Positions 61,104 through 64,000 of a DNA stretch of 64,000 nucleotides are shown here, piece by piece (the first letter of the stretch is position 1; each line of letters starts with the position of its first letter). Made by a program: the position numbers. The DNA is from Octopus sinensis (taxonomy: Eukaryota): assembly GCF_006345805.1 (NCBI RefSeq), contig NC_042997.1:171306001-171370000 (forward strand). The letters run 5' to 3'.

Positions 61104-62680
61104 GAAATTATTGTATACAGTGCTCAGGTGCACCACAACATGTCAAAAGTGCGTATAAAGCATATGCAGCCATGTACAAATGTCTGGGAAGTGAGCAGTG
61201 TATGAGTCAGATACATGCTTGCATGTGTATGGAGGGGAGAAAATCAGGTGTAGTGTTGGCGAATCTCAGGAAGCATGGAAGTTTTGAAGGATGCAGTGCT
61301 CCGACAACTAACAACTGACGCCAGCAGTTTGCTCCATTCTTCAGTAACTCTTAGTGTGAAAAAATGTTTCCGAAAGTCATGGGAGCTGTGCTGTTTTCTG
61401 ACTTTGTAAACATGTCCACGGGTGTTAGACGGGTGGAGTTTGAAAAGGTACTCAGAGTTATTGTTAGTAAGATGGTTAATAATTTTATGGGTGTCTGCCA
61501 AGTCAGCTGCCAGACGTTGGAGTTTCAATGTATCCATGCCCAGGGAAGTAAGGCGTTCAAAATATGGAAAATGCCTGATGGAGGGTATTCTCTTGGTTGC
61601 ACATCACTGAACGGTTTCCAGACGATTAATATCCTGGGCATATATCAAAGGTGAGAGCAGCGAATTCCCAAAATTCTTCAGAATTAACATTTCAAGAATA
61701 TTCCAAGGAAGAATGATTGGTAACAATATTCATAAAGTTTATAGAGACTATGTTGATGTGGTTACCATAGTATAGGTTCCATATTTCAATGTGAGTTGAA
61801 GTGGCAGAATTGCTTTATCTTAGATGAACCTGGGATTTGAAACTTCTGGTAAGAACTGTACTGTGGGCAAGTTTGGGAGAGCAGCTTGCATTCTACTCAG
61901 AATAGGGGTCTGTGTAGAATATAATGCTTGACTGGAATCAGTATGGGCACCAACATCACCATCGTCATCATCATCATTATCCTCATCATTTTTTTGTTTA
62001 GTACCAGGTCAATTAGATTGAGCTGATCTATGGTCAAAAGAGTTATGATCATAACCATCTCATTTTCCATAGCATTATGTATTTTATTAACAATCAGCAA
62101 AAGCTACAAAATGACTCAAGGGCCAAGGGTTTCATGTGTTGGAATTTACCTAGAACTAAGTTATCTCATTTGTCCTTCATTTGTATGTAGTTTGAAGAAG
62201 ATACGGCTGGCTGCTATTTCTAGCTGGTCAGGTGATTAAGTAGAGGCTTCCGTCTGTGCCCAATTGAACATTTGGTTGTTGCTGTTGCTGTTTAGCTCAT
62301 GCCAACTTTGACTGATCACAATTATGATGAAAGACTTTCCAGTTATGACAGTTTGTATGATGATGGTGATGATGACAATAAGTGTGATTAAGTACATTAA
62401 CATGTGTGTTTGAATTTGTGTATGTATGTATCTATGGGTATATATAATAATCACCTCATGGTAAGGTCACAAGAGGAAGCTATGTGAAACTCACATACAT
62501 ATATCTTTTATCTTTTACTCATTTCATGCTGGGGCATTGCCTTGAAGGGTTTAGTCAAACAAATTGACCCTAGTACTTATTTTCTTCTTTTTCAGCCTGG
62601 TATCTATTCTATCAGTATCTTTTGCTGAACCACTATGTTATGGGGACATAAACAAACCAACACTCATTGTCAAGTGGTAG

Positions 62681-62714
<34 letters not shown>

Positions 62715-64000
62715 TTATATATATATATATACACCATAAATCCTTGAGTATAATCTGCATTTTTTCCCTAAAATTTAAAGGTCAAAATCCCTAGTGCATA
62801 TTATACACGAGGTTAAAAATGAAAATGATTTTCTAAGCAGTGTCCGAGTCTCTATTTGCTGTCCAGCAATGTTTATTCAGATGCATTTTGTGATGTCGGC
62901 CACGAAAATACCTTAAGCTAAGCCTGAAAGCAATGAAGTCATTAAAGAATCATCCATAACTTGCAGTAAGCAATATTTATTAAACATTATTACTGTTATT
63001 TCTTTATTTTATGCAAACAAAATGCACAAAAAAGCTACACATTTGCACCCCTTCTCTAACTTGAGTCAAGGAGGTCTATATAACATCCATGGTTTGTAAA
63101 AATGTATGCAGTAGCGTACTTTATTATACAATAATAATAAAGTACGCTACTGCATACATTTTTACAAACCAAGGATGTTATATAGACCTCCTTGACTCAA
63201 GTTAGAGAAGGGGTGCGTATTATACACAAGGTTTAGGTTTTTCAGCCAGCCATATCTTCTTCAAACTACATACAAATGAAGGACAGATGAGATAACTTAG
63301 TTCTAGGTAAATTCCAACACATGAAACCCTTGGCCCTTGAGTCATTTTGTAGCTTCTGCTGATTGTTAATAAAATACATAATGCTACGGAAATGAGATGG
63401 TTACGATCATAACTCTTTTGACCATAGATCAGCTCAATCTAATTGACCTGGTACTAAACAAAAAAATGATGAGGATAATGATGATGATGACGATGGGGAT
63501 GTTGGTGCCCACACTGATTCCAGTCAAGCACTATATTCTACACAGACCCCTATTCTCAGGAGAATGCAAGCTGCTCTCCCAAACTTGCCCACAGTACAAA
63601 TCTGCCTTAAAAATCCCATTCGTATTATACTCAAGGGCAGTCTATACTCGAGGATTTACGGTATGTATTCATATATAAAATATACAAGGCATTTTTTGTC
63701 AGATGACTGAAACTAAAAGGTATGTACTCTGAGTGCTCAGTTTGGTACACCACTAAAATTCAAGTATAAATTGCAGTTGAATATGTGATTTTGCAATTGC
63801 CTTTCTAAAGCAGCTAGAAATGCCTTCCCCTTGAGCAGGTGTGTATTGATTAAAAGAGAAATGAAGAAGTAAACAATTTGGTTAGACTTGACAAGGACAT
63901 TTAATTTAGCTATATAATATGATATAATACAATACAAAGGTGTATATAGAGATTAAATACACCTTTGTATTGTATTATATATCATTATATAGCTAAATTA

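What the first reader, a model, noticed from the sequence alone, without database searches (positions are those of the whole stretch)
61857..63661. DNA transposon that captured 356 bp of its own neighbourhood, inverted, beside an internal fold-back
Seen: inside the TIR-bounded element (62734-63661), an 83-bp-arm palindrome (63045-63127/63134-63216) is followed by a near-exact inverted copy of 61857-62213, which lies ~520 bp outside the left TIR. Known: abortive gap repair after excision gives internally deleted elements with filler DNA. Inference: a snapshot of Pack-type sequence capture by template switching, with donor and product side by side. It also creates a 1.7-kb inverted repeat and makes host DNA mobilisable.
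Basis: partly seen in the sequence, partly recalled or inferred. Interest (0 to 1): 0.7.

Follow-up and report, generated by a model that had tools for sequence, protein, structure and literature searches.

The report
Inverted local duplicate inside MITE-like element
A 357-base stretch of octopus-like DNA has been copied backwards into a small transposon-like element about 1 kb away, which looks like an ordinary by-product of DNA break repair already catalogued in many animals.

Summary
61857-62213 and 63243-63598 are inverted copies (357/356 nt, 10 substitutions plus 1 indel, 96.9%), and both edges are sharp. An 83-nt-arm palindrome lies at 63045-63216. A 25-nt imperfect inverted repeat (21/25) ends at 62734 and 63661. 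The second copy sits among five copies of one TIR-like motif.

My best reading (about 0.5) is a single-copy "Pack-TIR"-type event, in which break repair or template switching copied nearby DNA into an old, non-autonomous short-TIR element. Tan et al. 2021 report 370 such cases in 100 animal genomes, most of them beside their parent. The short TIRs are far more diverged (16%) than the duplicate (2.8%). This favours repair in an old, immobile element over abortive repair after excision, and it gives no support to "mobilisable".

- No eukaryote genome could be searched, so copy number, family consensus, empty site and orthologues remain untested.
- The TSD is ambiguous and I could not assign a superfamily.
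- Which copy is donor and which is product is inferred.
- Rivals: a TE-independent fold-back duplication, a repeat or long-TIR element with TA flanks, and an assembly artefact.

Low to moderate interest. If the reading holds, it is a new member of a known kind.

The parts
61247..61639 (-). Context: 5'-truncated 3' fragment of a LINE-type retroelement ORF. Its homology stops 218 nt before the left arm.
   Evidence: A 119-aa ORF matches Octopus sinensis LOC118762190 at 68% identity. tblastn places aa 111-241 on 61639-61247, E 2e-54, and finds no match for aa 1-110 nearby.
61857..62213 (+). Left arm, the putative parental (donor) copy, 357 nt. It contains an (ATC)n-like tract and a T run. No coding signal was found.
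   Evidence: It is unique in the window apart from its inverted partner. There are no Pfam hits above cut-off on its ORFs, and a 70-aa ORF has no protein relatives.
62214..62493 (.). Spacer part 1: unique sequence plus a GT/AT-rich low-complexity stretch.
   Evidence: Only low-complexity matches elsewhere in the window.
62494..62733 (+). Spacer part 2: first half of an abundant SINE-like repeat, ending in (CA)16 and a TA-rich tract that abuts the left TIR.
   Evidence: 13 other copies in the window at 67-87% identity. (CA)16 lies at 62682-62713. Copies are printed.
62734..62758 (+). Left terminal inverted repeat (motif copy m1, inverted relative to the other four).
   Evidence: 21/25 to 63637-63661, E 0.017. 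The terminal 19-mer pattern matches only these two sites.
62794..62814 (+). Subterminal TIR-like motif m2, with AAAATCCC upstream.
   Evidence: Exact match to the 13-mer motif. 19/21 to m3 (D6, 19). Related to m4 including upstream bases (4/1000 shuffles).
63045..63216 (.). Near-perfect palindrome (83-nt arms, 6-nt loop). Its last 4 nt overlap motif m3.
   Evidence: 1/83 mismatches, not different from the arm divergence (p = 0.70). Unique in the window.
63213..63237 (+). TIR-like motif m3, a right-end-like terminus 5 nt (TTTTT) before the inserted copy.
   Evidence: 0/500 shuffles for m1/m3 and for m2/m3.
63243..63598 (-). Right arm: inverted copy of 61857-62213, 356 nt, the putative captured/filler copy.
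63599..63636 (+). Truncated left-end-like unit. It begins with the last 7 nt of the left-TIR sequence, then AAAATCCC and motif m4 (63624-63636).
   Evidence: and a direct reading.
63637..63661 (+). Right terminal inverted repeat (m5), followed by TA-rich sequence.

Best explanation
The locus is a local inverted duplication created by break repair with template switching in or at the ends of an old, non-autonomous short-TIR (MITE-like) element, or a cluster of such elements, of a cephalopod-like genome. In published terms it is a single-copy, parent-adjacent 'Pack-TIR'. Shown: the two copies, their sharp edges, the TIR-like motif family around the second copy, and the relative divergences. Inferred: a break arose between the right-end-like motif m3 and a left-end-like unit. 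Repair synthesis then switched to the complementary strand about 1 kb upstream, copied 356 nt, and returned 18 nt inside the left-end-like unit, deleting its tip. The adjacent 83-nt-arm palindrome may be a snap-back from the same event, since its divergence is compatible, or it may be an unrelated fold-back element. The break was more probably transposition-independent than an excision. The structure is probably immobile today.
For: The duplicate is real and diverged by substitutions (7 ts, 3 tv, 3 at CpG) in a CpG-depleted genome (o/e 0.46), so it is not a fresh artefact. Both edges are sharp. The second copy is bracketed by members of one motif family. There are 4 exact matches to the 13-mer within 62742-63636 against 1 one-mismatch match in the other 63 kb, with 0.49 expected and 0/100 shuffles reaching 5. 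Pairwise relations: m1/m5 (E 0.017), m1/m3 and m2/m3 (0/500), m2/m4 (4/1000). The sequence right of the insert starts in the middle of a left-TIR-like sequence, as expected for deletion plus filler. Arm, element and palindrome have no other copy in the 64 kb, whereas the SINE-like repeat has 13. Two independent insertions of a rare repeat 1 kb apart are therefore unlikely. The TIRs (4/25) are more diverged than the arms (10/356; p = 0.009). Published frame (PMC8277862, section 8): of 281 unique animal Pack-TIRs, 59.8% are intrachromosomal and 56.9% lie within 15 kb of the parent, mostly under 5 kb. In primates, 91 of 97 arose in TEs already present in outgroups.
Against: The element family is not documented. 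There is no second copy in the window, no consensus and no superfamily assignment. The TSD is ambiguous (TA, or 8 bp at 6/8, both inside a TA-rich tract; read). I could not reconstruct an empty site. The second half of the SINE-like repeat is not detectable right of 63661: nhmmer gives 0 hits at E<=10 in 61500-64000 and none there at E<=100, and pairwise scores are marginal (1/300, 28/300, 170/300 and 116/300 shuffles as good). There is no microhomology at the inner junction, and at most about 1 nt plus nearby similarity at the outer one. Polarity is inferred. The outer ends of the arms carry TA on both sides (TG-TA-CTGTGGG...CCCACAG-TA-CA), as a Tc1/mariner-type long-TIR element would. Fold-back palindromes are frequent in this window, so the palindrome need not belong to the event.
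Confidence: 0.5

Rival explanations
1. This is a TE-independent inverted duplication. A replication-based template switch or fold-back (FoSTeS/MMBIR type) duplicated 357 nt in inverted orientation, and the landing site among MITE-like sequences is incidental. The TIR-like motifs played no part.
For: Sharp edges and no clear junction microhomology. A near-perfect palindrome lies 27 nt away with compatible divergence. The short TIRs are old and decayed, so no transposase need have acted. Tan et al. themselves attribute most single-copy cases to transposition-independent breaks, so the boundary with the best explanation is gradual.
Against: Both junctions of the second copy lie within a few nt of TIR-like units, 5 nt after m3 and inside a left-TIR-like sequence. 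That is unlikely for a random landing site in 64 kb, where the motif is otherwise almost absent. It is the only spaced local inverted pair in the window, so a general local inverted-duplication process is not evident. The head-to-head SINE pair at 18278-18546 is two independent copies: 85% to each other but up to 92% to other copies.
Confidence: 0.2
2. The 357-nt arms are themselves repeat sequence. Either they are the long TIRs of a 1.74-kb fold-back or Tc1/mariner-like element (61861-63594) flanked by a TA duplication, or they are two fragments of a dispersed family. Nothing was captured.
For: TA lies directly outside CTGTGGG.../...CCCACAG on both sides. Long, about 97% identical arms are typical of long-TIR and fold-back elements. 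The window is repeat-rich and holds several fold-back units. Copy number in the genome could not be tested.
Against: There is no other copy of the arm in 64 kb. The TA is part of a 4-nt palindromic extension and TA is common (8.6% of dinucleotides), so it is weak evidence. The short-TIR pair 62734/63661 straddles the right arm. If a long-TIR element had inserted into the right-hand unit, the missing 18 nt of that unit should sit left of 61857, and it does not. The interior would have to consist of an old SINE half plus MITE pieces.
Confidence: 0.15
3. The mechanism is the same but the polarity is reversed. The 356-nt segment is native to the element, and a copy was written into a break at 61857/62213.
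For: Nothing in the two copies polarises the event. CpG decay occurred in both (2 sites decayed in the left copy, 1 in the right).
Against: The right copy interrupts a recognisable unit (a truncated left-end-like sequence). The flanks of the left copy show no discontinuity that I could recognise and no TIR-like motif.
Confidence: 0.1
4. This is an assembly artefact, an inverted chimeric join from fold-back reads.
For: Palindromes and inverted joins are a known failure mode of long-read assemblies (my own knowledge). A further palindrome is cut by the window end at 63902-64000.
Against: The copies differ by 10 substitutions with a transition and CpG bias and only one indel. This is evolutionary divergence, not read error or exact duplication. 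The palindromes in the window range from 85 to 99% identity.
Confidence: 0.05

Closest known systems
Pack-TIRs of animals (Tan et al. 2021, Nat Commun 12:4280, PMC8277862). I read the outline, passages, and sections 8 and 14.
   Same: A 100-5000-bp non-TE segment lies between two pieces of one TIR element, is at least 90% identical to a nearby parental copy of the same length, is single-copy, and lies within 5 kb of the parent. Gap filling by template switching is the proposed mechanism, and the TE is older than the capture.
   Different: Here the TE family is unannotated, so the criterion of terminals matching a consensus cannot be applied. The insert lies next to extra internal copies of the terminal motif and next to a long palindrome. 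The taxon is cephalopod-like. The words 'octopus' and 'mollus' occur 0 times in that paper's main text, and I could not see its supplementary species list.
Pack-MULE / Pack-CACTA / Pack-TYPE elements of plants (PMC6379663, PMC8903248; seen only as titles and abstract starts)
   Same: Non-autonomous TIR elements that carry captured host DNA.
   Different: Those are defined by capture of gene fragments and are often multicopy and mobilised. Here the captured piece shows no coding signal and no evidence of mobility.
Filler DNA and internal deletion after P-element-induced gap repair (as cited by Tan et al.; details recalled)
   Same: Deletion in the element, plus templated filler copied from nearby sequence in cis.
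   Different: That process follows excision by an active transposase. Here the TIR decay argues that the element was old when the copy was made.
Fold-back and long-TIR elements (FB, Galileo; PMC4168063 seen only in the listing; properties recalled)
   Same: Long, nearly identical inverted arms around a heterogeneous middle, and palindromic substructures.
   Different: No repeated copies were seen. The arms are not internally repetitive. The short-TIR pair straddles one arm.
MITE birth by microhomology-mediated deletion (PMC3814204; abstract start only)
   Same: Template-switch or abortive repair that remodels small TIR elements.
   Different: That work describes miniaturisation of an autonomous element, not gain of flanking DNA.

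Membership tests
Pack-TIR (operational definition of Tan et al. 2021, section 14) | Internal sequence of 100-5000 bp flanked by two pieces of the same TIR element | tested here: inconclusive
   The 356-nt insert lies between m3 / left part and m4-m5 / right part, which share one motif family. No annotated family exists against which to say 'same element'.
Pack-TIR (Tan et al. 2021) | Both flanking TIRs cover at least 10 bp of the consensus termini | not testable with these tools
   No consensus is available. The two ends match each other at 21/25.
Pack-TIR (Tan et al. 2021) | Internal sequence at least 90% identical to a parental copy, with a length ratio of 80-120% | tested here: met
   96.9% identity, 356 against 357 nt.
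Pack-TIR (Tan et al. 2021) | Unique, unambiguous parental hit in the genome | not testable with these tools
   Unique within the 64-kb window. No eukaryote genome collection was available.
Pack-TIR (Tan et al. 2021) | No TE within 100 bp of the parental copy (control for segmental duplication) | tested here: inconclusive
   The nearest recognisable repeats are the LINE fragment ending at 61639 (218 nt away) and the SINE-like copy from about 62494 (about 280 nt away). Repeats could only be recognised from the window itself.
Cut-and-paste DNA transposon / MITE | Terminal inverted repeats | tested here: met
   21/25, E 0.017. 2 of the 4 mismatches are CpG to TpG/CpA changes (read).
Cut-and-paste DNA transposon / MITE | Target-site duplication of a superfamily-specific length | tested here: inconclusive
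   The flanks are TA-rich on both sides. TA, or 8 bp at 6/8, are both possible and neither is significant.
Cut-and-paste DNA transposon / MITE | Multiple dispersed copies with the same termini | not testable with these tools
   No second copy in the window. The genome was not searchable.
Long-TIR / fold-back element | Flanks contiguous once the element and one TSD copy are removed | tested here: not met
   The right flank is a truncated left-end-like unit whose missing 18 nt are not found left of 61857.
microRNA precursor families (Rfam) | Score at or above the family's gathering threshold | tested here: not met
   Of 22 matches at E<=1, none reaches its threshold (best is mir-5014 at 77.6 against 101 bits, on both strands). 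These are generic long-hairpin matches.

The most novel reading that the evidence does not exclude
One repair event at the junction of two MITE ends produced both a snap-back palindrome and a 356-nt inverted filler. That would make this a rare, still legible, complete record of Pack-TIR birth in a cephalopod, with parent, product, deletion and fold-back side by side. The resulting 1.7-kb inverted repeat would then act as a hairpin-RNA / small-RNA source or as a fragile site, and might still be mobilisable by a related transposase.
Probability: 0.12. Interest if true: 0.5.

Novelty: new member of a known kind. Interest (0 to 1): 0.3.

Why it matters
If the reading holds, it extends TIR-element-associated sequence capture, documented in 100 mostly vertebrate and insect genomes, to a cephalopod-like genome. 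It would also offer an unusually readable example, with the parent 1 kb away, both junctions intact, and a neighbouring snap-back. Such loci help to separate excision-linked repair from transposition-independent repair as the origin of Pack-type elements. By itself it is one non-coding locus with no evidence of mobility or function, so its weight is small until genome-wide and cross-species comparisons are made.

Tried and rejected
1. Empty-site test through the SINE-like repeat. I built an nhmmer model of the repeat's second half from 10 window copies. It gave no hit right of 63661. Pairwise alignments were marginal. The test is inconclusive, because several copies of this repeat also lack that half.

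2. Extension of the inverted repeat beyond the arms, into the TIR-like units or the spacer. Similarity there is at chance level in all four comparisons. I rejected it.

3. The idea that the left arm belongs to the neighbouring LINE fragment. LINE homology stops at 61639. I rejected it.

4. Coding content of the arms, spacer and element. I gave Pfam 10 of the 47 ORFs listed, and none reached a curated cut-off. One 70-aa arm ORF had no relatives among proteins of 38-123 aa. Longer proteins were not searched.

5. Other copies in the window at low stringency (word 7). There were none for the arm, element or palindrome. One 54-nt, 72% match for the arm at 12206 (E 0.001) I took as low-complexity or chance and did not follow up.

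6. The left end as a self-contained 87-nt hairpin MITE. The evidence is weak (27/500 shuffles as good).

7. TSD and superfamily assignment. Nothing was convincing. My comparison with textbook TIR termini came from memory only and produced nothing.

8. Rfam. Only sub-threshold hairpin matches.

9. A general inverted-duplication process in the window. The SINE palindrome at 18278-18546 is two independent copies. The other palindromes are unrelated single units.

10. Literature. In one search, none of the 15 listed papers (of 2,587 holding at least two terms) combines a cephalopod term with a Pack-type term. This does not prove that such a paper is absent. One search gave nothing useful on octopus MITEs.

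Not checked:
- The source genome or any eukaryote genome.
- Long-read support.
- Orthologous loci.
- The supplementary data of Tan et al. (species list, case table).

The window looks cephalopod-like, not human.

Full report
WHAT IS THERE. The window (64,000 nt, no N, 37% G+C, CpG o/e 0.46) is repeat-rich DNA of a cephalopod-like genome. A retroelement ORF fragment at 61247-61639 (minus strand) is 68% identical to an Octopus sinensis protein. An abundant SINE-like repeat occurs at least 14 times.

- Inverted copies at 61857-62213 and 63243-63598 (357/356 nt, 96.9%, E 2e-170).
- A palindrome at 63045-63127 / 63134-63216 (83-nt arms, one mismatch, 6-nt loop).
- A short terminal inverted repeat at 62734-62758 / 63637-63661 (21/25, E 0.017 against the whole window).

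The two long copies differ by 10 substitutions (7 transitions, 3 of them at CpG) and one 1-nt indel. Similarity stops abruptly at both ends. Four tests for extension beyond the edges gave chance-level scores.

ANATOMY OF THE ELEMENT. The unit 62734-63661 is not a simple TIR...TIR element. Its terminal motif occurs five times:
- m1 is inverted at the left end.
- m2 lies at 62800-62812, m3 at 63219-63231 and m4 at 63624-63636.
- m5 is a degenerate copy in the right TIR.

Four of these are exact matches to a 13-mer that otherwise has a single one-mismatch match in the remaining 63 kb (0.49 expected). m2 and m3 share 19/21. m1 and m3 align as termini (0/500 shuffles each). m2 and m4 also share an upstream AAAATCCC (4/1000).

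The inserted copy begins 5 nt (TTTTT) after the right-end-like m3. It is followed at once by the last 7 nt of the left-TIR sequence, then AAAATCCC, then m4. This is a left-end-like unit that has lost its first 18 nt. So the insert can be read in two ways. Or it may lie between two adjacent or nested small elements, with the tip of the second one deleted. Either way, both junctions lie at or in TIR-like sequence.

The left TIR abuts the (CA)16(TA)n tail of a SINE-like half-copy. The right flank is TA-rich too, which fits insertion of the whole unit into a TA tract. I could not prove this, because the second half of the SINE-like repeat is not detectable to the right. No convincing TSD or superfamily could be assigned.

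WHAT IT MOST LIKELY IS. The arm, the element and the palindrome are each unique in the window. Two independent insertions of a rare repeat 1 kb apart are improbable, so a local copying event is the economical reading.

The TIRs are significantly more diverged than the duplicate (4/25 against 10/356, p = 0.009). The palindrome is not (1/83, p = 0.70). The element was therefore old when the copy was made, and the palindrome could date from the same event.

This is the profile that Tan et al. (PMC8277862; sections 8 and 14 read) describe for single-copy animal Pack-TIRs. Of their 281 unique Pack-TIRs, 56.9% lie within 15 kb of the parent, mostly within 5 kb. In primates, 91 of 97 were formed in TEs that were already present in outgroups. 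Breakpoints are explained by transposition-independent gap filling with template switching.

I replace 'abortive repair after excision' with 'repair of a break in an old element', and I drop 'mobilisable' as unsupported.

Junction microhomology is absent at the inner junction. At the outer junction it is at most about 1 nt, plus a nearby AGTAYA similarity. In Tan et al., 67.6% of cases had microhomology at one or more breakpoints, so its absence here is not decisive.

RIVALS.
(i) A TE-independent fold-back or template-switch duplication that merely landed here. The argument against it is that both junctions coincide with TIR-like units, and that no other spaced local inverted duplicate exists in the window.
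(ii) The arms are the long TIRs of a 1.74-kb element with TA flanks (TG-TA-CTGTGGG...CCCACAG-TA-CA), or are dispersed repeat fragments. TA is common (8.6% of dinucleotides), the short-TIR pair straddles one arm, and the 18 nt missing from the right-hand unit are not found at the left flank. Only a genome search can settle this rival.
(iii) Reversed polarity.
(iv) Assembly artefact, which is unlikely given substitution-type divergence.

COMPARISON AND NOVELTY. The closest known kind is the animal Pack-TIR. Of its operational criteria, I could test and meet only identity and length. Two were inconclusive: flanking by pieces of one TIR element, and a parent free of nearby TEs. Consensus-terminal coverage and genome-wide uniqueness of the parent could not be tested. 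It works like a Pack-TIR, but membership is provisional.

No paper among those listed links cephalopods with Pack-type capture. The main text of Tan et al. mentions neither octopus nor molluscs, and I could not see their supplementary species list. If confirmed, this is a new member of a known kind in a new taxon.

VERDICT. Interest is low to moderate (0.3). The decisive steps are a copy-number search in the source genome, a family consensus, orthologous loci and long reads. None of these could be run here.

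Noticed in passing
window 8520-11959: A tandem satellite array of about 3.4 kb. Self-matches are offset by multiples of about 36/72 nt at 91-96% identity, and its ORFs show a reiterated peptide-like unit.
   Followed up: no
window 25318-27076: Tandem repeats of about 340-400 nt at 88-95% identity. A related inverted copy lies at 49283-49636.
   Followed up: no
window 43826-47275 (+): A nearly complete LINE-type retroelement. Pfam finds Exo_endo_phos (E 9e-17), RVT_1 (E 5e-17) and zf-RVT (E 4e-6) in three consecutive long ORFs. 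Upstream ORFs at 42397-43792 may be its ORF1 region.
   Followed up: partly
window 23637-23956; 36428-36769; 36923-37326; 48538-48773; 63902-64000: Five further near-perfect palindromes or fold-back units (arms 47-200 nt, 85-99%). They are unrelated to each other and each is single in the window. The first two are flanked by (TA)n, like TA-inserting palindromic MITEs. The last one is cut by the window end.
   Followed up: partly
window 18278-18546: Two SINE-like copies lie head to head, 37 nt apart. They are 85% identical to each other but up to 92% identical to other copies, so these are two insertions and not a local inverted duplication.
   Followed up: yes
window 62494-62733 and 13 other sites: A modular SINE-like repeat: a common first half, an internal microsatellite, then one of at least two different second halves or none.
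   Followed up: partly
window 29655-30029 (+): A 124-aa ORF that looked to me, from memory, like the C-terminal part of a mariner-type transposase. Pfam gave no match at E<=0.001.
   Followed up: partly
window 30714-31628 and 33289-33781: Long purine/pyrimidine low-complexity tracts that give spurious ORFs of 130-300 aa in several frames.
   Followed up: no
window 61018-61103: An (ATA)n/(ATG) microsatellite lies directly 3' of the LINE-type fragment on the minus strand, as at the tails of many LINE copies.
   Followed up: no
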